A DNA stretch of 64,000 nucleotides from a virus. The stretch is taken from IMG/VR virus record IMGVR_UViG_3300042450_000503, positions 2,479 to 66,478 of that record; one strand, written 5' to 3'. Shown here in pieces: positions 22,107 through 56,800 of the stretch. The position numbers and the translations under genes are program-made. Numbering within the stretch: the first letter of the stretch is position 1; each line of letters opens with the position of its first letter. Under the pieces are notes generated by a model. It made no database searches. It worked only from the letters and a program-made list of their open reading frames with translations, and was not told the origin of the DNA.

Positions 22107-22363
22107 AGAACTACAACTATATCACCTAGTTTTATAACATGATAAGTTTCCTTATCTATTTCAATTTTATGACCAGCATGTCGATCATAAAATATTTCAT
22201 CATTTTTTTTAACCCCAACAACTTCATCCCCAATTTCTAATACTTTAGCTTGTATATATCTAATATCTTCTCTTTGGTTTTCAGCAAGCATTAACCCACC
22301 TTTTGTTTTAGTGGTTCCCTCTTTTAATTTTTCTATAATTAGATTTCTACCTATTGCTTTCAT
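22103..22363 (-). CDS. groES: Co-chaperonin GroES
   Basis: 86 aa; mobile loop TKTKGGLML, VLEIGD, HAGHKIEID; adjacent to GroEL. Confidence 0.9.
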   Translation of the reverse strand: MKAIGRNLIIEKLKEGTTKTKGGLMLAENQREDIRYIQAKVLEIGDEVVGVKKNDEIFYDRHAGHKIEIDKETYHVIKLGDIVVVL

Positions 22364-23907
22364 TATGCTCTCAAATTATTGATTACACAATCCGTTGACA
22401 ATATTGTAGTTGCTACAGAGGCTGCATTTCTTAAAGCACTTTTTGTCACCAATAAAGGATCAATAATGCCTGCTTTAATCATATCCACAGTTTCCCCTGT
22501 TACAACATTAAGCCCATACCCTATGCTTGATATAACTTTCATAGGCACTTCTTCAATGCCCGCATTATCTAATATAGTATTAAAAGGAGCTCTGATAGAA
22601 TCTAACAATATCTCCTCACCTATAGAAAACGTGTCTATATTATAAGAAGCGTTTAATAAAGCAATTCCTCCTCCAGGAACAATCCCTTCTTTTATTGCTG
22701 CTTTAGTTGCACAAATTGCATCTTCTATTCTATCAGCTTTTTCTTTTAATTCAATTTCTGAATTTGCACCAACTTTTACAATTGCTATTTTAGCCGATAG
22801 TCTTGCCAATCTTTTCTCTAATTTAACTACAACGTGAGGTGGATTATTTTCAAGTAATGAATCTTTAATATCATTTATAATATTTAATATTTCATCTGAT
22901 TGTTCCCCTACGTGAAGTATTGTTTCTTCATGAGATGTTATACTTTTAATGCAATTGCCTAAATGTTCAGGTTGAATTAAATCTAAATCATCTCCAAGAT
23001 CCTCGTTTATAAGTGTAGCTCCTGTCAACAAAGCTAAATCATCAAAGATCTCTTTTTTATTAATACCATACATTGGAGCATTAATAACATTTATTTTTAT
23101 ATTACCTTTAGCTTTATTCATAGCTAATGCGGATAGTACTTGTTGTTCTAAATCGCCTATGATTAATAAAGGTTTATTATTTTTTATTACAAATTCTAAT
23201 ACCGATTGTATCTGTCTAATAGAATCTACCGGAGACTCTATTAATAATACTAATGGGTTATCTAGTTCAGCTGTTTTCTTTTGAGCATTGGTAATAAAGT
23301 GAGAATTTGTTAATCCCATATCACATTGTACTCCCTCAACTATTTCTAAACTACAATCTGGATCTGATGAAGTTTCCATCATCACAATTCCGGTATTGCC
23401 TACCGATTTAAAAGCATCGCTAACTAACTTACCTAATTCAGGATCATTATTAGTTGATATTGTTGCAATATTATTTAACATATTATCGTCTACAGTTATA
23501 GCCATATCTTCAAGATATTTTATAACTTTTTCAACCGCTTTATTAATGCCTTCTTTAATTTTTCTAGCATTAGGGTCTTCTATATTATAAGCGTTCTTTA
23601 AAATAGAATGCGCTAATACAGTAGCGGTAGTAGTACCGTCTCCTGCTTCTCTAACTGTTTTTCTGGCAGCTTCTTTTAAAAGAGTAGCTCCCATATTTTC
23701 TACCGGGTCCAGTAAAATAACTGCATCCGCAACCGTTACTCCGTCCTTAGTTATTAGAGGTCTTCCTGAAGCGTCTTCTAAAAGAACACACTTGCCACTT
23801 GCCCCTAAGGTTGAACTAACCGCTTTGGTTAATTTTTCTATACCAATAAATACTTTATCGCTGGCTTCTTTACCGAAGCTTAGATTTTTGACTATAGCGT
23901 CTGACAT
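22363..23907 (-). CDS. groEL: Chaperonin GroEL
   Basis: 514 aa; ITKDGVTVA, AGDGTTTATVLA, EGIVPGGG, GIIDP; no C-terminal GGM tail. Confidence 0.95.
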   Translation of the reverse strand: MSDAIVKNLSFGKEASDKVFIGIEKLTKAVSSTLGASGKCVLLEDASGRPLITKDGVTVADAVILLDPVENMGATLLKEAARKTVREAGDGTTTATVLAHSILKNAYNIEDPNARKIKEGINKAVEKVIKYLEDMAITVDDNMLNNIATISTNNDPELGKLVSDAFKSVGNTGIVMMETSSDPDCSLEIVEGVQCDMGLTNSHFITNAQKKTAELDNPLVLLIESPVDSIRQIQSVLEFVIKNNKPLLIIGDLEQQVLSALAMNKAKGNIKINVINAPMYGINKKEIFDDLALLTGATLINEDLGDDLDLIQPEHLGNCIKSITSHEETILHVGEQSDEILNIINDIKDSLLENNPPHVVVKLEKRLARLSAKIAIVKVGANSEIELKEKADRIEDAICATKAAIKEGIVPGGGIALLNASYNIDTFSIGEEILLDSIRAPFNTILDNAGIEEVPMKVISSIGYGLNVVTGETVDMIKAGIIDPLLVTKSALRNAASVATTILSTDCVINNLRA

Positions 23908-31766: not shown

Positions 31767-31837
31767 TACAAACCGGAGGTGTGAAAACACCGAAGGTGTA
31801 TAGCAAATGTATAGCATTTGCGTATAGCAAAAACCCT

Positions 31838-31878: not shown

Positions 31879-31912
31879 AAAGAAATTAATAATAATAAAT
31901 AAATCAAATAAA

Positions 31913-32089
31913 ATGACTTTAAAAATTAATCCTAACTTTAGATCTTTAATTAATTCTATATTAATTAATTCTAATAAATTAAATAATTCTTTTTATATAT
32001 TAAATAATAATTTAATAATAAATCCAAAAGATCTTGAAGAAGTTGATAAATTATTGACTAGAAATCTTTATAAATATAAAGTCTTATAA
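31913..32089 (+). CDS. Small Asn-rich early protein (58 aa)
   Basis: MTLKINPNFRSLINSILINSNK...; follows P2. Confidence 0.55.
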   Translation: MTLKINPNFRSLINSILINSNKLNNSFYILNNNLIINPKDLEEVDKLLTRNLYKYKVL

Positions 32090-32094
32090 TCCTC

Positions 32095-32136
32095 TACAGT
32101 CTTAATACGATCAAAGAATGATAATATAAATGTAAG
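32095..32136 (+). promoter_or_regulatory. Early promoter-like motif P3
   Basis: TACAGTCTTAATACGA-N8-TGATAATATAAATGTAAG. Confidence 0.8.
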
Positions 32137-32163
32137 TAAATAATAATAAATAAATAAAATAAC

Positions 32164-32319
32164 ATGACTAGAATAGAACAATTAATAGTAAATAAATATC
32201 CTAACCAACTTCAAGAAATAAAAGATCAAATAGAACTTTTAAAATTAGACTATGATGAAGAATTATTCTTAGAAGAAGATATAATAGAATCAATATTAAT
32301 AGAATTAAATATAATATAA
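32164..32319 (+). CDS. Small acidic early protein, paralogue B (51 aa)
   Basis: MTRIEQLIVNKYPNQLQEIKDQIELLKLDYDEELFLEEDIIESILIELNII. Confidence 0.75.
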   Translation: MTRIEQLIVNKYPNQLQEIKDQIELLKLDYDEELFLEEDIIESILIELNII

Positions 32320-32321
32320 CT

Positions 32322-32363
32322 TACAGTCTAGATACGACTAGTAATTGATAATATAAATGTAAC
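32322..32363 (+). promoter_or_regulatory. Early promoter-like motif P4
   Basis: TACAGTCTAGATACGA-N8-TGATAATATAAATGTAAC. Confidence 0.8.
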
Positions 32364-32395
32364 AAATAATAAATAACAAATTAAATAAAATAAAG

Positions 32396-33383: not shown

Positions 33384-33386
33384 AAT

Positions 33387-33434
33387 GTGCGACGTTAGCC
33401 TACTATTTATTAACTTAATCGGCTAATGTCACTC
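33387..33434. repeat. 48-bp inverted-repeat site, copy 2
   Basis: GTGCGACGTTAGCCTACTATTTATTAACTTAATCGGCTAATGTCACTC. Confidence 0.75.
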
Positions 33435-33476
33435 TTTTTCAACAGTTGCTTGCAACTACACCGAAGGTGTATAGCA

Positions 33477-33516
33477 TACAGGCCTAATACGGTCTCTTTT
33501 TGATAATAATTACGTA
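33477..33516 (+). promoter_or_regulatory. Early promoter-like motif P6 (variant)
   Basis: TACAGGCCTAATACGG-N8-TGATAATAATTACGTA; not followed by an ORF. Confidence 0.6.
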
Positions 33517-33646
33517 GCCTGGCTTTGAAATAGCGTCGGAAGAGTAGACTCCGTCCTACATTATAGCCAAATATACTCGAAAGTAAGGTTTGCCCTTGTT
33601 TTTTACTTGAGGGTAGCGATTACTTTTGATCTTTTTAGGTAAATCG
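33514..33646 (+). ncRNA. Candidate small structured RNA
   Basis: ORF-free stretch behind P6 with several short hairpins (TGGCT/AGCCA, TACT-CGAA-AGTA, CCCTTG/TGAGGG, CGATT/AATCG). Confidence 0.3.
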
Positions 33647-33672
33647 TGTATAGCATCCACCCAAAAAACTCT

Positions 33673-33714
33673 TACAAGATCAACACGAGACTAAATTGAT
33701 AATATATTTGAATC
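33673..33714 (+). promoter_or_regulatory. Early promoter-like motif P7
   Basis: TACAAGATCAACACGA-N8-TGATAATATATTTGAATC. Confidence 0.65.
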
Positions 33715-33729
33715 AAAACAATAATAATT

Positions 33730-33864
33730 ATGACTTTAGAATTAAATAATACCGAGGTTGCCCAATTAAAAGAGTTAATTTATGACTATATCGACCGCAT
33801 CGGTGGTTTCGATCAATTAAGTGATGAAATGAAAGAGGTTTTACAAGATTTAATAGATGGATAG
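33730..33864 (+). CDS. Small acidic early protein (44 aa)
   Basis: MTLELNNTEVAQLKELIYDYIDRIGGFDQLSDEMKEVLQDLIDG; follows P7. Confidence 0.6.
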   Translation: MTLELNNTEVAQLKELIYDYIDRIGGFDQLSDEMKEVLQDLIDG

Positions 33865-33923
33865 AGAAGTACTCTATAGCACCTGTATACTATTTAATTC
33901 AAGCAAATGAAGTATAACCTTTT

Positions 33924-34263: not shown

Positions 34264-34282
34264 CAAATAAAAAATAGAAAAT

Positions 34283-34399
34283 ATGGAAGAGTACAGTGAT
34301 TGTTGTGGTGCGGGTAGACACCACATATATGATGAGTTATGCGGTGATTGTTTAGAACATTGCGAGTTTACCGATTGGGATGGTGAAGATGAAAATTAA
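34283..34399 (+). CDS. Small Cys-rich acidic peptide (38 aa)
   Basis: MEEYSDCCGAGRHHIYDELCGDCLEHCEFTDWDGEDEN; zinc-ribbon-like. Confidence 0.6.
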   Translation: MEEYSDCCGAGRHHIYDELCGDCLEHCEFTDWDGEDEN

Positions 34400-34415
34400 T
34401 ATTAAAAAGTAAATT

Positions 34416-34598
34416 ATGAAAACATATACAATACAAATTAACGAAAGTTATTCAAGAATAGTAACTATAGAATTGCCAGATGATAGCGATATTAACGACG
34501 CTATTGCCGAAGTGCGTAGCGATTATTATAATGAGCTAATAATATTAGATTATAGAGATTTTGATGATGCGGATTTTTATGAATTAGAAAATTATTAA
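34416..34598 (+). CDS. Small acidic protein (DpnD/PcfM-like pattern)
   Basis: 60 aa; YTIQINESYSRIVTIE...AIAEVRSDYYNELIILDYRDF. Confidence 0.55.
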   Translation: MKTYTIQINESYSRIVTIELPDDSDINDAIAEVRSDYYNELIILDYRDFDDADFYELENY

Positions 34599-34600
34599 GT

Positions 34601-34825
34601 ATGATAGGAGATAACCAAATTGTAGAGTATATTAATCCGTATTTTCCGGATAGACAAATGTACAAATGTAAGATTGAGGATTCAACATATCACACCGATG
34701 ACTATGGTAAATTAGTTGATTGGATTGTTGATAAGACTGTTAATGCAGAGTACTATGCGGAATGTAAGCAATTAAGCGACATAGCGTGCGCTAGCTTTAT
34801 GGCGGATGTAAAATATAAAGATTAA
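34601..34825 (+). CDS. Hypothetical early protein
   Basis: 74 aa. Confidence 0.6.
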   Translation: MIGDNQIVEYINPYFPDRQMYKCKIEDSTYHTDDYGKLVDWIVDKTVNAEYYAECKQLSDIACASFMADVKYKD

Positions 34826-34832
34826 TAATAGG

Positions 34833-34906
34833 AGTTAAGAGGAGTAATGGTAAACTCAGGCCGATCAGTGATGCCCGCAATGTAGGTTCGATTCCTACCT
34901 TAACTA
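34833..34906 (+). tRNA. tRNA-like gene with non-canonical anticodon arm
   Basis: Acceptor AGTTAAG/CTTAACT, D arm GAGT/ACTC, T arm GTAGG-TTCGATT-CCTAC; anticodon stem pairs only 3 of 5. Confidence 0.6.
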
Positions 34907-34916
34907 CAAATTCATT

Positions 34917-34958
34917 TACAGTCTTAATACGATTAATAAATGATAATATAAATGTAAC
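34917..34958 (+). promoter_or_regulatory. Early promoter-like motif P9
   Basis: TACAGTCTTAATACGA-N8-TGATAATATAAATGTAAC. Confidence 0.8.
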
Positions 34959-34974
34959 TAACAAATAATAATAT

Positions 34975-35154
34975 ATGAAAAATTCAATCAAGTTTTTAAA
35001 GTACAATTTCATTAAGCTCAACGGAGTGCTATACACACCCTACCTTGTCGGCGAACTACCGAACACGTTCGGATTTATAACTAATGACGAAGATCAAGAT
35101 GGTTATAGTGAGTGGTTTAATTTTAAAGGTTTAACTTATATAATCAAGAAATAG
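34975..35154 (+). CDS. Small early protein (59 aa)
   Basis: MKNSIKFLKYNFIKLNGVLYTPY...; follows P9. Confidence 0.65.
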   Translation: MKNSIKFLKYNFIKLNGVLYTPYLVGELPNTFGFITNDEDQDGYSEWFNFKGLTYIIKK

Positions 35155-36298: not shown

Positions 36299-36624
36299 TG
36301 GAAAAAAGATATAAAGATAGCGGATATGGCTATAGAGATGTTGCGGTATTAGTAAGCGCTGGATATGGCGCTGGGTGGAGTTCTTGGAGTATGCCTGAAG
36401 AGGCATTGTTTGATCCGGTTATAGTAGATTTTGTTGAAAATGACAAAACCAACACAGAAGAGTTCTCCGAGTATTTAGAAAAAAAATATTCAGAAGTTTT
36501 TACAGGCGGAGCTGGTGGTCTATATGTATGTTGGGTACCTGAAGGTAAAGAATTTAGAATAGACGAATATGACGGAGCTGAAAGTTTAGTGCTAAAAGAT
36601 AATGAAAGCTGGATAACAGCGTAG
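36298..36624 (+). CDS. Conserved phage protein
   Basis: 108 aa; VAVLVSAGYGAGWSSW...FRIDEYDGAE. Confidence 0.75.
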   Translation: MEKRYKDSGYGYRDVAVLVSAGYGAGWSSWSMPEEALFDPVIVDFVENDKTNTEEFSEYLEKKYSEVFTGGAGGLYVCWVPEGKEFRIDEYDGAESLVLKDNESWITA

Positions 36625-36625
36625 T

Positions 36626-36667
36626 TACAATCCTGATACGAATAAGAATTGATAATATAAATGTAAC
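36626..36667 (+). promoter_or_regulatory. Early promoter-like motif P10
   Basis: TACAATCCTGATACGA-N8-TGATAATATAAATGTAAC. Confidence 0.8.
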
Positions 36668-36684
36668 AAATTAAATATAATAAT

Positions 36685-36933
36685 ATGAGTGATTTAACTA
36701 AAAAAATTAATTTAGTAGGTAGATTTGCTACCTTATCTAAAACTGTAGACTTTGATGATTTTTATTCCATAAATATATGGATTGCACGAGACGAAATTAG
36801 TTTACAAGGGCATATTAACCCTACTAATATGAGCTCAGCTAAAAAGCTTGGCGTAGATTTAGTATTTGAAAATGATAGTCAAATGCTTAAGGGTGAGTCT
36901 GAAGATGGTAAATTAAGAATCGTTTTAACCTAA
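36685..36933 (+). CDS. Hypothetical protein
   Basis: 82 aa after P10. Confidence 0.7.
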   Translation: MSDLTKKINLVGRFATLSKTVDFDDFYSINIWIARDEISLQGHINPTNMSSAKKLGVDLVFENDSQMLKGESEDGKLRIVLT

Positions 36934-36938
36934 TAACT

Positions 36939-37124
36939 ATGACAAAAGAAAAATTAGCATTTCAAGAAGCCTTAGCATTCGAAGTATGGATGCGCGAAAC
37001 TGTAAGATCTGTACATTATGCAGACAACTCTAAAATGGCTGACGCTTATGACAGAGTATTTAATAACGCATTAGAAATAGTAATATATGAAAACGCTAAA
37101 TCAAAAAGAACTAGACCTAGTTAG
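36939..37124 (+). CDS. Hypothetical protein
   Basis: 61 aa. Confidence 0.6.
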   Translation: MTKEKLAFQEALAFEVWMRETVRSVHYADNSKMADAYDRVFNNALEIVIYENAKSKRTRPS

Positions 37125-37308
37125 GTTAGCCGTGCTTGAAGGAGTACTAGAAACCCAAAATAAATTACGCATTGACTTTAAAATTAGAGAATCTGATTTA
37201 ACTGTTCATCAAGTAATAAGACTTGAGCAGATCACGGATTTGCTATACACGCTGTTTTGCCAAGTTGTTGAAGAGCGCGGTGTCTTACAGTCCGAATACG
37301 AACAATAA
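37087..37308 (+). CDS. Hypothetical protein
   Basis: 73 aa. Confidence 0.6.
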   Translation: MKTLNQKELDLVRLAVLEGVLETQNKLRIDFKIRESDLTVHQVIRLEQITDLLYTLFCQVVEERGVLQSEYEQ

Positions 37309-37327
37309 TTGATAATATAAATGTAAC
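37286..37327 (+). promoter_or_regulatory. Early promoter-like motif P11
   Basis: TACAGTCCGAATACGA-N8-TGATAATATAAATGTAAC. Confidence 0.8.
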
Positions 37328-37344
37328 CAATAAAATTTAATAAA

Positions 37345-37752
37345 ATGGATAAAATAAACAACCTGTTTGATCAGGAAATTACAAAAACTATAGATGCTTA
37401 CCCAAGTATTTATACTAAAGATGATGTTGTTAGCTTATTAAGTAAGCTACGTACTGTAGTATTAACTGAAACCTCTGAAGCTTTATCTAATGCAAACGCT
37501 ACTCCAATTACTGAAATGGACTTTCAAAACTTTAGCGAAAGTGTAACCAGAGAATTAGAAAACAGAATAAACAGAGGCGATGTTGATGTGCATGACTATT
37601 CAAGCGCTGAGTTCAGTATTAACTATCACAATACAATTGAAATCGAAAGTATTGACTTTAATTCTGACGCTGTAACTGATGAATTATCTGATATATTATT
37701 AGATAAATTTCAAGAATCATTTGGTAAATTAATAACTAATACTGAAGAATAA
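37345..37752 (+). CDS. Acidic hypothetical protein
   Basis: 135 aa after P11. Confidence 0.75.
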   Translation: MDKINNLFDQEITKTIDAYPSIYTKDDVVSLLSKLRTVVLTETSEALSNANATPITEMDFQNFSESVTRELENRINRGDVDVHDYSSAEFSINYHNTIEIESIDFNSDAVTDELSDILLDKFQESFGKLITNTEE

Positions 37753-38006
37753 TGATAGATCTTAGAAAGAATAAAACAGAAGATCAGCCGCTACCTAAAT
37801 GGTTTAATGGTATGTTATATACTAATGGCGGAATGGTAATGAACCCTTTTAGTCATGAAAGTATTGAATTAACAGCCGCTGAATTAAGTATGTATGATTA
37901 TATTATGGGTTGTGTTATGTTAAATAAGTATGATGCAACCTTTAATAAAGCAATGAATTGGTTTCGGAAAGCCAATGGTGATGCCTATATGGTATTATTA
38001 GATTAA
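37752..38006 (+). CDS. Conserved phage protein
   Basis: 84 aa; NPFSHESIEL...WFRKANGDAYMVLLD. Confidence 0.75.
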   Translation: MIDLRKNKTEDQPLPKWFNGMLYTNGGMVMNPFSHESIELTAAELSMYDYIMGCVMLNKYDATFNKAMNWFRKANGDAYMVLLD

Positions 38007-38011
38007 CCATG

Positions 38012-38082
38012 TGTCTTATGGTGTAACGGTAGCACTAATCACTTTGACTGATTCAGTTTAGGTTCGAATCCTTATAAGACAA
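38012..38082 (+). tRNA. tRNA-Gln(TTG)
   Basis: Acceptor TGTCTTA/TAAGACA, anticodon arm AATCA-CTTTGAC-TGATT, T loop GGTTCGAATCC. Confidence 0.9.
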
Positions 38083-38104
38083 CTAACAATTAAATTTAAT
38101 AACT

Positions 38105-38341
38105 ATGACTAATGTAAACTTAGTGGAAACACTAACGGTTGATAGTAGCGCTATCTTTGAAGTTGCTTACTATCCTAATGTCGAAAGACTATTTGTACTG
38201 TTTAAAAACGGTAAAGAGTATGAGTACTTCAATGTGCCAACTCACGTAATGAATGGTTTAAGAGAAGCCTCATCTAAAGGTAAATTCTTAAACAAATATA
38301 TCTTAGCTTTCTACAGATTTAAGAAAGTTATTACGGTATAA
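38105..38341 (+). CDS. KTSC domain protein
   Basis: 78 aa; VDSSAIFEVAY...LFKNGKEYEYFNVP...ASSKGKFLN. Confidence 0.9.
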   Translation: MTNVNLVETLTVDSSAIFEVAYYPNVERLFVLFKNGKEYEYFNVPTHVMNGLREASSKGKFLNKYILAFYRFKKVITV

Positions 38342-38344
38342 TTG

Positions 38345-39080
38345 CTATACACGGTTGTCCTGCTGATCCGATCGGTAAGGTAGCGTAGAGGCCGTGTTAT
38401 TTACAATTGTCTCACATGAGTGGTATAGAGGTTGTAACGCAGGAAACAGTGCGTAATGCTGAATGCGGGATTGGGGTGACCCCGGTCGCGACTCAGGGAG
38501 CAGTGAGTTCGTTAAATAAGAACTGTTCAAAATGTTAATCACTCGGGGTTGTGTGAAGTTATACCAGGCTTAGCTAGCTGGTTGCAACCGAAATATGGGA
38601 TAAAGAAAATAACCGGTCCTCGGATTAACAAAGAACTAAGTGCTGGGCTAAATGGATCTGTTTCAGTCTCCGGGCATTGTCACGGCCGACGGGTTAAGGG
38701 GTTCGATTCCCCTTTTAGTTCCTAATAGCTAAGCTGTGTAAAGCACCAGATCTGATAAACTGTGTGAAGCTATAGGTTAAACATTGAATACCTTATCACG
38801 GCGGGAATCTATTGAGGAACGGGTGATAAAAGATACTATCAGTAATGGTAGATGTGTTGTTCCCTTGAGAAAGGAATACAGGTGGGTAGATGAAATAAGC
38901 TATCAGAACTGCAGATAAAGATGCGGACTGCACAACACAAATGAGTTCTCAGCAAGTAGTTAAAGAACCGTTGTATTACACCTTAATTGGTAGTAATCAA
39001 CAAACGTCATATTAACTACGCGACCCTAATCATTAAGTGAGCAGCGAGGGCTAACTTGCAAGGCTATAATGATGGGTGCT
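38345..39080 (+). ncRNA. Large structured non-coding RNA candidate with embedded tRNA-like domain
   Basis: ~740 nt without a credible ORF, GC-richer than flanks, more than 10 helices, GNRA loops, T-loop GTTCGATTC. Confidence 0.65.
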
Positions 39081-39096
39081 AAAAAAATTAAATATT

Positions 39097-39249
39097 ATGA
39101 GCAGAACAGTAAAACAAGCGTATAGAAAATCAAGAGTATTTGATAAAACATGCAGAAATAATGGAGCATGCTCTTATTGTAGAGACAATCGTTTACATAA
39201 GCATAATAAGAAATTAATTGCTTACAGTCTTGATACGATTAAAGAATGA
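39097..39249 (+). CDS. Small basic Cys-containing protein (50 aa)
   Basis: MSRTVKQAYRKSRVFDKTCRNNGACSYCRDNRLHKH... Confidence 0.6.
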   Translation: MSRTVKQAYRKSRVFDKTCRNNGACSYCRDNRLHKHNKKLIAYSLDTIKE

Positions 39250-39264
39250 TAATATAATTGTAAA
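39223..39264 (+). promoter_or_regulatory. Early promoter-like motif P12
   Basis: TACAGTCTTGATACGA-N8-TGATAATATAATTGTAAA. Confidence 0.8.
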
Positions 39265-39273
39265 ACAACAAAT

Positions 39274-39855
39274 ATGAAAGAATTAACAACTAAACAATTA
39301 GCGGAAGTAAATAAAAATTTAGATAATTACTTCTCATTAGCAACCGACAAAGATATTGATAACGGTATTGCGTGGTATAAGCAAGCACATTATATATGTA
39401 AAGATCTTGCTGAGCGGTATAATACTAAGCTAGAAACTGTTGCAAGTATCATTAGTGCATTGTCACCACGTAATCGTTGGCCACAAAATATCAAAGATAC
39501 CAAAACGGTACTTGATGCTATACACGCTGGCCTCGAGCCTGATCAAGTTAAAGTGTGTACGTTCAACCGAAACAAAGAAAAAGCTTTCTTATTGGGTAAA
39601 GAACAAACGTCTATTACTGATAAAAGTTTAAAAACATTCAGTTTTGTTAACAATATTGCAAAATTAGATAATAATTATATTACAGTTGATGTGTGGCATT
39701 TGCGTGCTTGTTTTGGTAAAACTATAACAACTAATCCAAGCAGAAAAGCCTATGATCAAATAAGATTATTAACAATCGAAAAAGCTAAACAACGAGGCTT
39801 AAACGGTTACGAGTACCAAGCTATAGTGTGGAACGCAGTAAAAAACAATTTTTAA
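39274..39855 (+). CDS. Phage protein with HhH-glycosylase-like pattern (DUF7178-like)
   Basis: 193 aa; WY, ISALSPRNRW, KTFSF, ITVDVWHLRA, QAIVW. Confidence 0.6.
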   Translation: MKELTTKQLAEVNKNLDNYFSLATDKDIDNGIAWYKQAHYICKDLAERYNTKLETVASIISALSPRNRWPQNIKDTKTVLDAIHAGLEPDQVKVCTFNRNKEKAFLLGKEQTSITDKSLKTFSFVNNIAKLDNNYITVDVWHLRACFGKTITTNPSRKAYDQIRLLTIEKAKQRGLNGYEYQAIVWNAVKNNF

Positions 39856-39857
39856 TT

Positions 39858-40019
39858 ATGACAGCAAAAGAAAAAGCAAAAGAACTTATAGAAAAAATGA
39901 GTTCTAAAAATCGTAAATTTAATGCAATATCTTGTGCATTAATAACCGCGGATGAAGCGGCTAAAATTACAGGTAGTAGATACTGGTATGATGTTCAACG
40001 AGAAATACAAAAACTATGA
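39858..40019 (+). CDS. Hypothetical protein
   Basis: MTAKEKAKELIEK...YWYDVQREIQKL; ATG start preferred to the upstream GTG of the ORF track. Confidence 0.6.
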   Translation: MTAKEKAKELIEKMSSKNRKFNAISCALITADEAAKITGSRYWYDVQREIQKL

Positions 40020-40489
40020 ATATATTCTATTTAGATAAAGACCCGGATAAAGCAGCTACAATGATGTATAACAAGCATGTTGTAAAAATGATCCTCGAAT
40101 CTGCGCAATTATTATGTACCGCGCATATTATGTTAGATGGTGATGATGCAGACGTACCATATAAAATGACTCACAAAAATCACCCGTCAGCAATATGGGC
40201 GCGAGAGTCTGCTGACAATTATGCGTGGCTGTACTTTCATATGTTAGCGCTTGGCGAAGAATATACTAAACGTTATGGTAAAAAACATTTAACTATAACA
40301 AAATGCGAAGAATGTTTAGGCAATATACCGGGCGGCATGTTAAACTTAGGTTCAACTCCAATGCCTCAATGTATGCCTGATGAATACAAAGTTCCTGGCG
40401 ATAGCGTAACCGCTTACTGGAATTATTACGAAGCTGAAAAAGTAAAAATACGAAATAGTAACGAAGAAATAAGAACACGACCTAACTAA
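40016..40489 (+). CDS. Pyrimidine-dimer DNA glycosylase (endonuclease V family)
   Basis: 157 aa; MNIFYLD, HVVKMILESAQLLCTAH, THKNHPS, PQCMPDEYK. Confidence 0.8.
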   Translation: MNIFYLDKDPDKAATMMYNKHVVKMILESAQLLCTAHIMLDGDDADVPYKMTHKNHPSAIWARESADNYAWLYFHMLALGEEYTKRYGKKHLTITKCEECLGNIPGGMLNLGSTPMPQCMPDEYKVPGDSVTAYWNYYEAEKVKIRNSNEEIRTRPN

Positions 40490-40490
40490 T

Positions 40491-40733
40491 ATGAAAGCAA
40501 CAATTAAATTTAAGTTACCAGAAGATAACATGGAATTTGCTATACACAATATGGCTCAAGACATGGCCGGTTTACTATGGGAATTAACTCATAATGTAAA
40601 GAAAAAATGCGAGTGGGCAGCCGATCAAGTTGATCCTATCAATGCTAATATCTATGACGGAATAGATATAGTGTTTGAAAAAATAACAGAATTATTAAAT
40701 GATTATAATATTGACTCAGATAAATTAGGATAA
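40491..40733 (+). CDS. Hypothetical protein
   Basis: 80 aa; MKATIKFKLPED. Confidence 0.7.
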   Translation: MKATIKFKLPEDNMEFAIHNMAQDMAGLLWELTHNVKKKCEWAADQVDPINANIYDGIDIVFEKITELLNDYNIDSDKLG

Positions 40734-53849: not shown

Positions 53850-56800
53850 TTAATACTTAGCCATTTCTCTTTTTTTCCTTCTGCTTTCTCTTCTTTTAGC
53901 TCTAGCCTCTTCTTTTATTTTAACCTGTTCGTCGTAAGGCAATTTACTAATACTGTCTTTTAAAGCTTTTCTATTTTCTTCTCTACTTATTATGCCTTTT
54001 TCAATACCTTCTTTTTTTCTTATAGCTTTTGCTTTAGATCTTATTTCTTCATCACCTTTTGGATCTTCTATACCTACTGAGTAAGGTGTAAATCCAACTC
54101 CTACCGCAACTCTTTGCCAAGCTTTATTTTGTGAGTTCATGGCTTGAGATACGTTCTCAATTTTATTTACTAAACGATCCATTGGAAAGTTTGTACCAGC
54201 TTCTACAAGTTTTCCGGTTACGCCATACATAGGGCCTAAGTGAACTCGTCCATCTTGCATTACACCCCATCCTCTTTCGGTTATAAGATCTTTTTCAAAT
54301 TTAGTTTGTTGAAGTCCAGTATATACTTTTCTAAGCTTAGATCCAATTGGAGGCGATATATTAGCCCCTTCCAACATAACTTTTGCGTAGTCAGCTTTAA
54401 AGTTTTTATCTTTCTCGTCAAGGTATTTATTAGTCATGTTTTTTAATACAGAAACAATCCCACCTAAAAACCCGGTTCCTCTTAATATTGTATCTAAAAC
54501 ACCATCAGCAACACCTATTAATCTTTCATTAGTTGTTTTCTTTTTTGCTTTACCTTTTTCTGGATCTAATTCTTTATCATCATCATCAAAAGCAACCGCA
54601 AATAATCCCTGTTGTAAAGCAGCAAATAATGTATTTTGTATTGCTAAATAGTATATTATTTTTGCAACATGAGTTTTCGCGTCTCCCCTTCCGTTTTTAA
54701 GATCTAAAAAAGATTTTTTAACAGTACGAGATTGTTGCATTGCGGTATTCTGGAATGTTAATAGTAATCTACCAGCTCCACTTGCTTGTTGCTTTGATAT
54801 ATCTCTTGGATCTCCTGATTGTTGTGTTTCATCAGATACTTTTGTAAAATCACTCCATGCTGCAGTTTCCGCCTCTGCTTCTGTTAAACCTTCTTTTAAA
54901 TAAGATTTAATTCTATTTCTATAAAACGGGGCACCACCAGAAGCAATAGCAAAACTATCCGCTAATTGTGTTGGGGTATAACCAATCTTTAATAAGTAGG
55001 CTATAACGGCAGCAGGTTTATTTTTACTTGTTGCAGCAGCATTAGCTATTTCAGCAGAGGCAACATCTTCTTTTAATCCACCACGTCTTTCTTTCATTTT
55101 ATCTGAATTCCAAATACGTGAAAAATCTGTCCAATATTGTTTTTGATTTGCAAACGCAATACCTGCGGCAACAGGATTATTATCTCTTAGGTTTAAAAAG
55201 TTAACGGCTCCAATTAATTGTAATGTAGCAGATCGAGTATTTAAGAACATAATAGCTCCAGTAGAACCATTTACCCAATTACTCCAAGCACTTGTTTCTT
55301 TGTCTTGACCAAAGCCTCGGTTTTTACCGTTGATCATTCTATACAATACATCTTCAATTGCTTCTCGAACATCGGTTCCATATATTGCTTCTACTTTATT
55401 TATATTAGCGCCAACAAGTTTACCGTTTTCAAACTTACCAAACATTTCTTCTGAGTTTTCAATAAATTCAGCAAGGAATTTTTTTCTACCAGCTCCTTCT
55501 GTAATATTGTGCAAATCTGCTATAATAGTATCAGCATCCCAATGTTGAGTAGGTGTAATCCATCCAGGCCCTTGTCTACCCATTATAATTAATCCATTTT
55601 TAAATGAATCTAATTCAGGGTCATTTGCAACAAGAGCAGTAAGTTTGTTTGCATCTCGTTTAGATATACCTGGGATCTCAATACCAGCTTCTGTCCACAT
55701 TGCAACACGAATAGCTTGATCATATGTAAAGTCTCCATCCGGGGTTAATTTTTCAATTTTCTTTCTAATATTAGGGAATGAACTTATCAATGCTTTATAA
55801 TCTCTTTTAATAGATTGTCTAGCTGCATCCATCAAATCATTTCCATTAGCGTATGGTTTTAATAACGCATCGGTAAAAAACTTCTTATGCCCCTCACCTA
55901 TTGTGCCTTTACCAATAAAATTATATAATAACAATTCAAAATCTGCTGCGGAAGCAGGTACATATAAATCAAATAGATTTTTACCAGCTCCTCTTCTTTT
56001 TGCAACAATGTCTGAAAATATTTTATATCGCTCTGTTCCTTTATTCTCTTCTATAATTCTATTGAATGTAGGTGATATAACTTTACTAAACTTTTCTCTA
56101 GCTTGTTGTATTTTTGATTTTACGTCTAATACGTTTAAAGCATTTTGTACCGCTTCAACATTTGGCAAATGATCATCTGCAAAATAGAAATCGTTATATC
56201 CTTCAACCGCTTTTGCAGTCATCCAATCAGCTTTTGCTTGAGCTGTGCTGTTACCCAATCCAGTTATATTTTCTAATGGTATGTCTATGCCTATAGAAGA
56301 TAAAAATTGATGTATAGGTTCCGCAGAATTTGCGGGTCTTGCCGTAAGTATAAAGAAATTTTCTGGCCCAAACTTAGCAATCATCTTTTTCATTTTTTCA
56401 ACCATTGGACCTGGTTTGCCGTCAACTACTTTGCTAAATTCAGAAAAATCAAACATAGCACCGTCTTCTAAAAGAGTTGATCCTTGTTTTGCAAATTCAG
56501 CACCATTTAGTTTCCCAGTGGTGCCATCGGGCATTGTGTATAATACATTGCTTTTTGTTAAACCAACAGTATCATCAAAGTCAAAAACGCTAATACCTTT
56601 TGCTACCTTTGAATCTTTGCTTAAAGATCTAACTGTAGCATCAATGTTATTATTATTTTGTTGATTATAAAGTTTGGAAAATCTAACAAATTCTCTACCT
56701 AAATATTGAATTTCTGCATTAGGATCTAAATTAATTAATGAATATAATTTTTTATTTCCTAAAGTTACTATATTATAATATCTAGCTCCTTCTGATAAAT

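What the first reader, a model, noticed from the sequence alone, without database searches (positions are those of the whole stretch)
38012..39080. ~740-nt ornate non-coding RNA candidate following tRNA-Gln and a KTSC gene
Seen: the largest ORF-free stretch in a tightly packed genome, with helices ACACGGTT/GGCCGTGT (38349/38390), TTACAATT/GGTTGTAA (38401/38430), GGGG-TGA-CCCC, ATAGCT/AGCTAT (38725/38768), TTATCAC/GTGATAA (38793/38823), CTATCA-GTAA-TGGTAG, TGTGTTGT/ACAACACA (38853/38932), TTCCCTT-GAGA-AAGGAA, a possible pseudoknot TGAGAA/TTCTCA (38866/38946), GTAGTTAA/TTAACTAC (38956/39012), and ACCC..ATCATTA/TAATGATGGGT (39023/39067). G-U pairs and GNRA loops favour a plus-strand RNA. Established: GOLLD and ROOL are large phage RNAs often near tRNA genes; KTSC is a predicted nucleic-acid-binding domain. 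Inference: a GOLLD-like or new large RNA, or a cluster of smaller RNAs, possibly in complex with the KTSC protein.
Basis: partly seen in the sequence, partly recalled or inferred. Interest (0 to 1): 0.8.

Follow-up and report, generated by a model that had tools for sequence, protein, structure and literature searches.

The report
Phage RNA island: three folded RNAs
The gene-free 740 bases of this lake phage are not one giant RNA but a row of separately inherited folded RNAs: one ends in a tRNA look-alike, and another belongs to a widespread phage RNA family that no catalogue lists and whose job is unknown.

Summary
Window 38342-39273 is the largest stretch without an ORF of 66 aa or more. It is GC-rich (0.43-0.47 against about 0.3).

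It is not one 740-nt RNA. Relatives carry the parts independently. I see three units:
- A (38343-38722) starts at a copy of the phage's repeated TGCTATACAC word, holds optional inserted modules, and ends in an anticodon-less tRNA-like cloverleaf (38633-38722).
- S (38725-38773) is a small hairpin.
- B (38774-39082) is a pseudoknotted RNA. Its family turned up in 103 and 85 IMG/VR stretches by two exact words. Covariation is strong: 92.9% of cells paired against 81.6% shuffled, 0 of 500 shuffles as high.

Nothing in Rfam 15 matches at E<=10 except tRNA-Gln, and GOLLD and ROOL were tested directly.

The only cultured carrier of B is Cellulophaga phage phi14:2. A preprint reports abundant unexplained non-coding RNAs there. 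That these are B is my inference.

Function is unknown. My best guess is stable RNAs cut out by tRNA-processing enzymes and tied to tRNA/tmRNA biology. The KTSC link is synteny within one phage clade only.

This scan had already found family B on other DNA several times. Unit A had been noted by first readers only.

The parts
38012..38083 (+). tRNA-Gln (UUG), upstream neighbour
   Evidence: ARAGORN; Rfam tRNA 59.1 bits
38105..38341 (+). KTSC-domain protein gene (78 aa); its stop codon abuts unit A
   Evidence: Pfam PF13619, 58.1 bits. The same junction (stop codon, then the repeated 10-mer) is seen in L153-L157, L159 and L075.
38343..38352 (+). Copy of the phage's repeated word TGCTATACAC, at the 5' edge of unit A; promoter-like or processing-site-like (inferred)
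   Evidence: 22 matches with at most 1 mismatch in the window against 4.2 +/- 2.1 expected, 0 of 100 shuffles as many; 15 exact copies, oriented like the local genes
38343..38722 (+). Unit A: modular RNA with a constant 5' start, optional inserted modules and a constant tRNA-like 3' end
   Evidence: 12 IMG/VR contigs share the 3' end exactly, plus the variant in L075. The interior ranges from about 0 nt (L155) to over 400 nt (L157, L158).
38349..38397 (+). A, 5' hairpin (ACACGGTT/GGCCGTGT)
   Evidence: The closing helix covaries (ACACAA/TTGTGT in L155). The interior differs in L154 and L158.
38400..38437 (+). A, hairpin TTACAATT/GGTTGTAA, specific to this phage
   Evidence: Sequence only; absent from L106
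38437..38524 (+). A, middle module: hairpin ACGCA-GGAAACAG-TGCGT, hairpin GATTGGGG-TGA-CCCCGGTC, hairpin CGACTCA..TGAGTTCG
   Evidence: Kept in L074 and L106 with compensatory changes (CGTG..CACG). Its sub-parts occur separately in L151, L154, L157 and L159.
38543..38632 (+). A, pseudoknotted module in front of the tRNA-like end: hairpin 38547-38553/38583-38589, a helix around the conserved loop AUAAAGAAAAUAACCGGU, and a candidate pairing of 38543-38546 with 38613-38616
   Evidence: 9 sequences: 87.5% of cells paired against 82.4% shuffled (0 of 500); slid partners 21-42%; the hairpin is 100% paired with 3 pairs changed on both sides. The pseudoknot shows one-sided changes only.
38633..38722 (+). 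A, tRNA-like domain: 8-bp acceptor-like stem 38633-38640/38714-38721, T-arm 38697-38701/38709-38713 with loop TTCGATT, D-like arm with UGG, and a 4-bp arm with a 4-nt loop (38684-38695) where the anticodon arm should be
   Evidence: RNAalifold on 11 sequences. L155 folds as a cloverleaf. L075 carries two compensatory changes, one in the acceptor stem and one in the T-stem. Not called by ARAGORN or by the Rfam tRNA/tmRNA models beyond the T-arm.
38725..38773 (+). Unit S: small hairpin (ATAGCT/AGCTAT closing an inner covarying stem)
   Evidence: Stands before B in L118 and L123 and before a tRNA-like gene in L157. 100% identical over 38724-38771 in 6 contigs.
38774..39082 (+). Unit B: member of the widespread pseudoknotted phage RNA family.
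- P1: 38774-38793
- P1b: 38793-38829
- P2: 38836-38851
- P3: 38853-38859/38933-38939
- P4: 38860-38876
- Pseudoknot: 38866-38871/38946-38951
- P6: 38956-38962/39013-39019
- P7: 39023-39035/39067-39077
- Tail: GCTAA
   Evidence: nhmmer core profile hits window 38829-38963 at E 1.8e-27, and there is a single copy in the window.
39097..39249 (+). Small basic Cys/His protein gene (50 aa), conserved downstream neighbour of the RNA island
   Evidence: tblastn finds it in L106, L153, L154, L156, L157, L159 and L075. No Pfam or PHROG family. The Atlas lists only viral hypothetical proteins.

Best explanation
SHOWN. The stretch is an RNA island on the plus strand made of separately inherited structured RNA units.
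- Unit A (38343-38722) begins at a copy of the phage's repeated TGCTATACAC word. It carries a variable set of inserted hairpin and pseudoknot modules and always ends in an anticodon-less tRNA-like cloverleaf.
- Unit S is a small hairpin.
- Unit B (38774-39082) belongs to a widespread, phage-only, pseudoknotted RNA family of about 250-500 nt that is absent from Rfam.

INFERRED.
- The island is transcribed with its neighbours as part of the long plus-strand gene block. No terminator-like site lies in 36500-40500.
- It is cut into stable RNAs by the host's tRNA-processing enzymes. RNase P would cut 5' of the tRNA-like domain. RNase Z or trimming would act at its 3' side, only 2-3 nt before S-B.
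- B then accumulates as a stable trans-acting RNA. Its invariant junction nucleotides would form a binding surface for a conserved factor of tRNA/tmRNA or translation biology.
- The target and the effect are not known.
For: Modularity:
- L106 has A followed directly by the downstream gene, with no S or B.
- L155 has only the 5' hairpin plus the tRNA-like end, and 10 other contigs have other module sets.
- B occurs without A in over 130 loci.
- RNA-library contigs of other samples join 38723 to 39085, which is a B-less form (contigs only).

B is a real structured RNA:
- 47 modelled pairs on 22 sequences are 92.9% paired against 81.6% shuffled (0 of 500), with slid partners at 34-46%. 21 pairs change on both sides.
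- The pseudoknot carries 3 independent double changes among 127 distinct cores.

Spread of B:
- One 20-mer is exact in 103 IMG/VR stretches and another 18-mer in 85.
- The 20-mer is found in only 3 MAG contigs among the genomes of 185,579 species.
- Among 50,697 phage records only phi14:2 carries it.

Expression:
- Drobysheva et al. (bioRxiv 10.1101/2020.03.07.982082, passages read) report two long intergenic regions of phi14:2 that are transcribed rightward above most genes, early and persistently.
- The B homologue and the tmRNA gene lie in two adjacent long gaps separated by one gene. This fits the description.

Link to tRNA processing:
- A T-loop-like word ends 12-17 nt (8 loci) or 68 nt (3 loci) upstream of B's first hairpin in 11 of 76 non-redundant loci, where 1.4 are expected.
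- Such a word lies within 520 nt downstream in 24 of 70, where 5 are expected.
- ARAGORN finds a tmRNA gene within 150 nt downstream in 9 of 74.
- A tmRNA gene scores over the Rfam cut-off in 17 of 49 B-bearing phage records, and in 9 of the 24 that are at least 90% complete.
- In the window the tRNA-like domain ends 2-3 nt before S-B.
Against: - No transcript ends are known for this phage. The RNA-library data are contigs only, could contain DNA, and leave most of B uncovered.
- The mapping of the phi14:2 'g004-g005 junction' onto the B homologue is my inference, because the gene table is in a supplement I could not open.
- Most B copies have no tRNA or tmRNA gene beside them: 64 of 74 have none within 150 nt downstream and 72 of 75 none upstream by ARAGORN. 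tRNA punctuation therefore cannot be the general way B's ends are made.
- 15 of the 24 near-complete B-bearing records have no tmRNA over the cut-off, and this window has none.
- The acceptor and T stems of the tRNA-like domain are invariant in the 11 aligned sequences because the search word fixed them. Only L075 gives covariation.
- Folding-energy z-scores are unremarkable.
- Neighbouring protein families give no functional hint.
- No recurring 7-nt complementarity was found between B's invariant segments and 20 distinct phage tmRNAs.
Confidence: 0.55

Rival explanations
1. One large ornate RNA of about 740 nt (GOLLD/ROOL-like) that works as a single folded unit. The differences between relatives would then be expansion segments.
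For: The units abut with gaps of 2-3 nt. GOLLD and ROOL are also phage-borne, lie near tRNA genes and have variable halves (recalled). L074 and L075 also have A directly followed by B.
Against: A without B occurs in L106, L150-L153, L155, L156 and L159. B without A occurs in over 130 loci. No helix was found that links A to B. There is no match to GOLLD or ROOL at E<=10.
Confidence: 0.07
2. B is a cis-acting leader of whatever follows it (tmRNA, tRNA or an mRNA). It would serve as a processing, folding or stability element and not as a trans-acting RNA.
For: B ends 6-9 nt before the first base of a tmRNA gene in L030, L033, L068, L082 and L083, and within 150 nt in 9 of 74 non-redundant loci. 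In the window it ends 15 nt before the start codon of the 50-aa gene.
Against: What follows B differs widely. Some copies are followed at once by terminator-like hairpins (L108, L140, L111). The invariant junction sequences are far more conserved than a leader would need. The phi14:2 region stays abundant late in infection, like a stable RNA.
Confidence: 0.12
3. B is a ribozyme. Its invariant junctions and pseudoknot would form a catalytic core, for example for self-processing out of polycistronic transcripts.
For: A 20-nt junction is invariant in over 100 otherwise diverged contigs. B has GNRA-capped helices, a pseudoknot at a three-way junction, and invariant closing pairs plus a GCUAA tail. 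Most copies lack flanking tRNA-like processing signals.
Against: No match to any ribozyme family of Rfam. No conserved cleavage-site context was identified. Conservation of this kind equally fits a protein- or ribosome-binding surface.
Confidence: 0.1
4. The tRNA-like end of A is the working part. It would be a tRNA mimic bound by the adjacent KTSC protein or by host tRNA enzymes (decoy, CCA-tailed or charged mimic), and not merely a cutting signal.
For: - It is the one constant 3' element of A in 13 contigs, while the interior varies from about 0 to over 400 nt.
- Its 8+5-bp continuous acceptor/T stack, with a G-C pair on top of seven pairs, has the geometry of bacterial tRNA-His. That identity rule is recalled and was not tested.
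- Its D-like segment and the stretch before the T-arm share the words CUGG and CGACGGG with the tmRNA consensus printed.
- A KTSC gene sits directly upstream in 6 of the 12 exact-match loci plus L075.
Against: - The KTSC adjacency is synteny among close relatives. Four A loci (L074, L150-L152) have another gene there.
- KTSC's RNA binding is only predicted.
- The PDB sequence matches are a HerA C-terminal domain and uncharacterised proteins, not RNA complexes.
- No CCA is encoded in the window, which reads C-C-T-A after the stem.
Confidence: 0.2
5. Not RNA. The stretch would be small protein genes, or a DNA-level element such as a recombination or replication site.
For: ORFs of 30-65 aa exist. 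The modules are mosaic between unrelated phages, as at recombination hot spots. GenBank annotates three tiny CDS over the phi14:2 homologue.
Against: - Relatives differ by 1-nt indels and by whole-module gain or loss that break every ORF.
- Changes are compensatory in helices and include strand-specific G-U pairs.
- The phi14:2 CDS lie on the strand opposite to the reported transcription.
Confidence: 0.03

Closest known systems
The unexplained abundant 'long non-coding RNAs' of Cellulophaga crAss-like phage phi14:2 (Drobysheva et al., bioRxiv 10.1101/2020.03.07.982082; passages read)
   Same: The phi14:2 record at about 2910-3360 (L001 2727-3175) is a homologue of unit B. It has the same P1 loop, the same pseudoknot and an identical 31-nt junction. 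It lies in a long gap one gene upstream of the tmRNA gene.
   Different: The paper gives no sequence family, structure or function. That its 'g004-g005 junction' is this gap is my inference (supplementary gene table not seen). The phi14:2 copy is about 450 nt with a longer insert after P1. phi14:2 has no unit A.
GOLLD (RF02032) and ROOL (RF03087) large phage-associated RNAs
   Same: They are also large, many-helix, pseudoknotted RNAs of unknown function that are carried by phages, often lie next to tRNA genes and have variable parts (context recalled).
   Different: No sequence or structure match at E<=10. B is smaller (about 310 nt here). The stretch is several independent units. Any multimeric-cage behaviour is unknown.
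tmRNA tRNA-like domain and tRNA
   Same: The end of A has a T-arm with loop TTCGATT stacked on an acceptor-like stem, a UGG in the D-like position, and the word CGACGGG that also stands in the tmRNA consensus.
   Different: - Both acceptor strands are local (38633-38640/38714-38721) and enclose about 70 nt, so there is no mRNA-like domain inside.
- The third acceptor pair is not G-U.
- There is no anticodon loop, only a 4-bp stem with a 4-nt loop.
- ARAGORN and the Rfam tRNA/tmRNA models match only the T-arm, at 13-15 bits.
Stable RNAs in the phage T4 tRNA gene cluster and tRNA-like 3'-end processing signals (recalled)
   Same: Non-tRNA stable RNAs sit among tRNA genes and are released by the tRNA-processing machinery. 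This is the mechanism I infer for A, S and B.
   Different: No sequence relation was tested. Most B copies are not flanked by tRNA-like elements.
YrlA / bacterial Y RNA (RF02553)
   Same: An RNA with a tRNA-like module lacking an anticodon. This family gave the only weak Rfam match near the tRNA-like domain (38676-38762).
   Different: 16.1 bits against a gathering score of 69, E 4.2. No Ro-binding stem was identified. Not a member.

Membership tests
Phage pseudoknot RNA family B (as defined here from IMG/VR contigs and phi14:2) | Core profile: GNRA-capped P2, long-range P3, P4 with loop UUGAGAA, junction AAUGAGUUCUCAGCAAGUAG | tested here: met
   nhmmer with the 22-sequence core profile hits window 38829-38963 at E 1.8e-27. 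All pairs of P2, P3, P4 and the pseudoknot form in the window.
Phage pseudoknot RNA family B (as defined here from IMG/VR contigs and phi14:2) | 5' hairpin with loop UAAACAUUGA; 3' domain with P6, P7 (ACCC/GGGU) and tail GCUAA | tested here: met
   Invariant columns of alignments A3 and A4 include these and the window has them. The window's inner P7 helix is a variant (ATCATTA/TAATGAT) shared with L064 and L068.
GOLLD (RF02032) | Match to the Rfam covariance model | tested here: not met
   0 matches at E<=10 in the whole 66,478-base record, with 18 candidates scored. Nothing in cmscan of 37900-39300.
ROOL (RF03087) | Match to the Rfam covariance model | tested here: not met
   0 matches at E<=10. 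The tool's 14 control genomes also gave none, so the control is uninformative. cmscan of the region also found nothing.
tmRNA (RF00023) | tRNA-like domain formed by the two ends of the RNA, around an mRNA-like tag frame and pseudoknots | tested here: not met
   ARAGORN finds none in the window. Rfam matches only the 15-17-nt T-arm in relatives, at 13-15 bits against 47. The acceptor strands are about 80 nt apart. The candidate frame in the conserved loop is broken by a 1-nt length difference in L153 and L156.
tRNA (RF00005) | Cloverleaf with a 7-nt anticodon loop; model match | tested here: not met
   No tRNA match at 38633-38722 at E<=10. ARAGORN finds none. A 4-bp stem with a 4-nt loop stands in place of the anticodon arm.
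RNase P RNA, group I and group II introns, HEARO, OLE, raiA and other large RNAs of Rfam 15 | Match to any of the 4227 covariance models | tested here: not met
   cmscan at E<=10 over 37900-39300 gives only tRNA-Gln plus six chance-level hits at E 1.5-7.6. The same holds for 11 related loci. That each named family is in the library is recalled, except GOLLD, ROOL, tmRNA, tRNA and YrlA, which the outputs name.
   Only synteny could be examined: KTSC lies next to A in 6 of 12 loci plus L075, and never next to B elsewhere.

The most novel reading that the evidence does not exclude
The island encodes two new kinds of phage RNA tool.
- The constant end of unit A would be a working tRNA mimic with a tRNA-His-type 13-bp acceptor/T stack. 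It would be CCA-tailed and charged, or captured by the neighbouring KTSC protein or by host tRNA/tmRNA factors.
- Family B would be a new class of large functional RNA, either a ribozyme or a high-affinity decoy for the ribosome-rescue or tRNA-processing machinery. Hundreds of aquatic phages would make it in bulk to take over or protect translation.
Probability: 0.12. Interest if true: 0.85.

Novelty: new variant of a known kind. Interest (0 to 1): 0.6.

Why it matters
- Family B is one of the few large (about 300 nt and more) RNA classes with strong covariation and a pseudoknot that is missing from Rfam. It is confined to phages and widespread in lake and marine viromes. If my mapping is right, it is among the most abundant transcripts of a cultured crAss-like phage, which is a tractable system for finding its job.
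- Unit A shows that phages build RNAs from exchangeable modules, capped by an anticodon-less tRNA mimic. This bears on how phages use or subvert tRNA-processing and translation-rescue enzymes.
- On the practical side, such islands are currently annotated as strings of tiny hypothetical proteins, as in phi14:2 gp007-gp009.

Tried and rejected
- Known families: cmscan of the window at gathering scores and of 37900-39300 at E<=10 gave nothing but tRNAs. The same held for L001, L074 and ten related loci.
- tmRNA reading of unit A: rejected. The acceptor strands are local, there is no third-pair G-U, and the apparent tag-like frame in the conserved loop is not kept in length.
- B pairing with the neighbouring phage tmRNA: no 7-mer of B's invariant segments has its complement in 3 or more of 20 distinct tmRNAs.
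- B's purine-rich 3' strand as an anti-Shine-Dalgarno sponge: considered by eye and dropped, because the window's own copy lacks that stretch.
- Neighbouring genes: I clustered 1328 ORFs within 3.5 kb of B in 138 sources. The commonest family (43 sources, about 222 aa) has no Pfam or PHROG match. The others are SPFH, GIY-YIG, exonuclease and VRR-NUC proteins, none of them RNA-related.
- Promoters and terminators: sigma-70-like sites are at chance level (16 against 16.5) and there are no terminator-like sites in 36500-40500.
- Closest phage: megablast of 18 kb and tblastn of the 2903-aa protein against 50,697 phage records found nothing.
- Sequencing runs: four metatranscriptome runs were laid as contigs only. 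X20 covers 38011-38660 with near-identical contigs and nothing beyond 38704. X21 has relatives' pieces at 38932-39047. Uncovered parts and depths are not evidence. Transcription of this locus is not shown.
- A full-length covariance model of B was not built. The alignment limit is 400 columns and calibration time for about 300 positions seemed prohibitive, so I used an nhmmer profile and direct pair counts instead.
- Complex prediction for KTSC with the 50-aa protein was not run, because I make no binding claim.
- Not in print, as far as these searches reach: and the passages read name no RNA family for B or A. The 10,006 candidate viral RNAs of PMC10690425 are at most 151 nt and are listed in supplements I could not open, so pieces of A or B may be among them. 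The supplementary tables of the phi14:2 preprint (gene numbering, read counts) were also closed.
Full report
WHAT IS THERE

Window 38342-39273 is the largest stretch without an ORF of 66 aa or more on either strand: 932 nt, with 510 nt as the next largest. The ORFs inside it are 30-65 aa. GC rises to 0.43-0.47 between 38300 and 38800, against about 0.25-0.38 around it. Upstream lie tRNA-Gln at 38012-38083 and a KTSC-domain gene at 38105-38341 (PF13619, 58.1 bits). Downstream is a 50-aa Cys/His-rich gene at 39097-39249, conserved in relatives.

The window is most of a 66,478-base IMG/VR virus record rated 100% complete, and it holds one copy of the stretch. No phage among 50,697 GenBank records resembles it over 18 kb.

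KNOWN FAMILIES

Rfam 15 at gathering scores finds only three tRNAs in the window. At E<=10 over 37900-39300 it finds tRNA-Gln plus six chance-level hits at E 1.5-7.6. One of these is YrlA, at 16.1 bits against a cut-off of 69, over the T-arm at 38676-38762. Direct searches of the whole record with ROOL (RF03087) and GOLLD (RF02032) give nothing at E<=10. ARAGORN sees no tRNA or tmRNA in 38300-39100.

THE STRETCH IS A ROW OF SEPARATE UNITS

A blastn against phage records gave a 31-nt perfect match in Cellulophaga crAss-like phage phi14:2. Reading that locus showed a homologue of only the last 310 nt of the stretch. A 20-mer from that junction is exact in 103 IMG/VR stretches, and a second 18-mer in 85. 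It is exact in only 3 MAG contigs among the genomes of 185,579 species.

Blast coverage of the window by these loci starts abruptly at about 38724. The first 380 nt have their own, much smaller set of relatives: two contigs by an 18-mer and 12 by the 21-mer of the tRNA-like end.

These relatives settle the question of one RNA or several:
- L106 runs from the same 5' hairpin, through part of the middle module, to the tRNA-like end. It then goes straight into the 50-aa gene, without units S and B and without window 38399-38428 and 38527-38630.
- L155 has only the 5' hairpin and the tRNA-like end, about 125 nt.
- L157 and L158 carry other inserted modules.
- Contigs from RNA libraries of other samples show the same joints, for example 38723 joined to 39085, and 38488 joined to 38530 or 38626. 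These are contigs only.

UNIT B (38774-39082)

From alignments of 37 and 22 compact members I derived these elements:
- P1, a hairpin with the invariant loop UAAACAUUGA.
- P1b, a helix that closes a variable insert.
- P2, a GUAA-capped hairpin.
- P3, a long-range helix that encloses P4 and a variable hairpin. P4 has the loop UUGAGAA.
- A pseudoknot between the P4 loop and UUCUCA, inside the invariant junction AAUGAGUUCUCAGCAAGUAG.
- P6 and P7 with variable inserts, and the tail GCUAA.

On 22 sequences, 47 pairs are 92.9% paired against 81.6 +/- 0.7% after shuffling (0 of 500 shuffles as high). With the partners slid by 1-3 columns the figure is 34-46%. 21 pairs change on both sides.

An nhmmer profile of the core finds 142 hits in 138 sources, and the window's copy scores E 1.8e-27. 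Among 127 distinct aligned cores the pseudoknot is canonical in 101. It carries three independent double compensatory changes and six G-U changes. About six cores have single mismatches, and the remaining rows have gaps in the alignment.

P1b averages 6.5 bp against 3.4 for shuffled linkers, in 58 assessable of 75. The window's TTATCAC/GTGATAA is one variant of it. The U-G pair in P2, present in 14 of 22 sequences, fixes the strand.

The window's B is mosaic. Its first 240 nt are closest to L092, L081 and L028, and its last 150 nt to L008, L015, L064 and L068. None of these contigs shares the window's flanking genes.

UNIT A (38343-38722)

All relatives start at TGCTATACAC and end in the same tRNA-like domain. 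The domain consists of:
- an 8-bp acceptor-like stem, 38633-38640 with 38714-38721;
- a 5-bp T-stem continuous with it, with loop TTCGATT;
- a D-like arm containing UGG;
- a 4-bp stem with a 4-nt loop where the anticodon arm should be.

These come from RNAalifold on 11 sequences and the cloverleaf fold of L155. Because the search word fixed the 3' strand, those 11 show no covariation in the acceptor and T stems. L075, found independently, has one compensatory change in each (read by eye).

The module in front of the domain (38543-38632) has a hairpin that is 100% paired in 9 sequences, with 3 pairs changed on both sides. It also has a helix of five different sequences around the conserved loop AUAAAGAAAAUAACCGGU, and a candidate pseudoknot supported only by one-sided changes.

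A is not a tmRNA:
- The acceptor strands are local.
- The third acceptor pair is A-U.
- The apparent frame in the conserved loop differs in length by 1 nt in L153 and L156.

THE 10-MER TGCTATACAC

It occurs 22 times with at most 1 mismatch, against 4.2 +/- 2.1 expected, and 0 of 100 shuffles reach that number. 15 copies are exact. They are oriented with the local genes, spaced about 1 kb apart through the plus-strand block (some inside ORFs), and triple at 31796-31829. It may be a promoter of a phage polymerase or a processing site. Either way, unit A begins at one copy and the next copy is at 39516.

CONTEXT OF B ELSEWHERE

In 76 non-redundant loci with both ends located:
- ARAGORN finds a tmRNA gene within 150 nt downstream in 9 of 74, a tRNA in 1 of 74, and a tRNA within 150 nt upstream in 3 of 75.
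- A looser T-loop word ends 12-17 or 68 nt before P1 in 11 of 76 (1.4 expected). One lies within 520 nt downstream in 24 of 70 (5 expected).
- Over whole records, tmRNA scores above the Rfam cut-off in 17 of 49 B-bearing records, and in 9 of the 24 that are at least 90% complete.

B is therefore enriched beside tRNA-type genes but is not tied to them, and the window itself has no tmRNA.

KTSC homologues occur in 7 of the 158 other loci, all of them relatives that carry unit A. PDB sequence matches of KTSC are a HerA C-terminal domain, two small uncharacterised proteins and spurious WD40 blades.

EXPRESSION

The phi14:2 preprint says that two long intergenic regions, the g004-g005 and g005-g006 junctions, are transcribed rightward above most genes, from the earliest time point and without later decline, and that their function is unknown (passages read).

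In the GenBank record, the B homologue and the tmRNA gene (Rfam 46.0 bits, E 4.6e-16, and called by ARAGORN) occupy two adjacent gaps of about 690 nt separated by one plus-strand gene. Tiny hypothetical CDS are annotated over the two RNA genes. I infer that these are the two reported RNAs. The gene table is in a supplement I could not open.

HOW IT MOST LIKELY WORKS

Shown: several structured plus-strand RNA units, each under its own selection and exchanged between phages.

Inferred:
- They are made as part of a longer transcript. There are no terminator-like sites, and sigma-70-like sites are at chance level.
- They are separated by the tRNA-processing enzymes at the tRNA-like domain, which ends 2-3 nt before S-B.
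- They accumulate as stable RNAs.
- B's invariant junctions would then bind a conserved partner. The enrichment beside tmRNA and tRNA genes points to translation or tRNA processing, without proving it.

I put 0.55 on this package. Most of the doubt lies in the trans-acting role. The rivals are listed with their odds in the Rival explanations section.

NOVELTY

B is uncatalogued in Rfam 15. As far as my searches reach, it has been seen in print only as an unexplained transcript. This scan had already reported the family on other DNA several times. Unit A with its tRNA-like end had been noted only by first readers on related genomes. I class the whole as a new variant of a known kind: phage-borne structured RNAs of unknown function near tRNA genes.

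Noticed in passing
window, 15 exact copies: 32782, 35027, 36135, 37241, 38343, 39516, 40538, 41310, 43051, 46543 (+); 13329, 31195, 31796, 33467, 33646 (-): The 10-mer TGCTATACAC is repeated far above chance (22 matches with at most 1 mismatch against 4.2 expected). It is oriented like the local genes, sometimes sits inside ORFs, and is triple at 31796-31829. It looks like a phage-specific promoter or processing signal, and no flanking consensus is visible.
   Followed up: partly
window 34833-34906 (+): Rfam calls a third tRNA (39.9 bits) that ARAGORN does not report. It overlaps a 79-aa minus-strand ORF at 34797-35036.
   Followed up: no
window 39097-39249 (+): A 50-aa basic protein with a Cys-x6-Cys-x2-Cys...His-x-His pattern always follows the RNA island in relatives (7 loci). 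It has no family in Pfam or PHROGs.
   Followed up: partly
L001 (KC821624) 2923-3248 and 3729-4336: The GenBank annotation of phi14:2 places seven tiny hypothetical CDS (gp007-gp009, gp011-gp014) over the B homologue and the tmRNA gene. These are probably not genes.
   Followed up: partly
window 38105-38341: By sequence, the KTSC protein matches the C-terminal 64 residues of a HerA helicase chain (8wiv_A, E 4.6e-5) and two small solved proteins (4rgi, 7x8c). Its N-terminal 26 residues resemble a WD40 blade. An oligomeric or anti-defence role is as open as RNA binding.
   Followed up: no
L109 about 1-380 and L126 about 3100-3620: Two family-B copies stand in tandem in these contigs. A subtype with a different 5' half (L107, L125, L128, L137, L143) keeps the UGAGA loop and the pseudoknot partner.
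   Followed up: no
L154, about 20-100 nt after the tRNA-like end: The hairpin module that fills helix P6 of B in L076, L092 and L093 stands alone here, between the tRNA-like end of A and a tRNA gene. Even the inserts of B move as separate modules.
   Followed up: no
L117 and L146, inside the invariant junction of B: A hairpin of about 35 nt is inserted in the middle of the otherwise invariant 20-nt junction.
   Followed up: no
window 53850-62561 (-) and 829-6405 (-): Proteins of 2903 and 1858 aa have no Pfam family. The 2903-aa protein also has no tblastn match among 50,697 phage records, a search I ran only for that protein. A GroEL-like chaperonin gene lies at 22363-23907.
   Followed up: partly
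window 33384-33893, 31908-32395, 34264-34600: These are further ORF-free gaps of 340-510 nt in the region that holds most TGCTATACAC copies. I did not examine them for RNAs.
   Followed up: no
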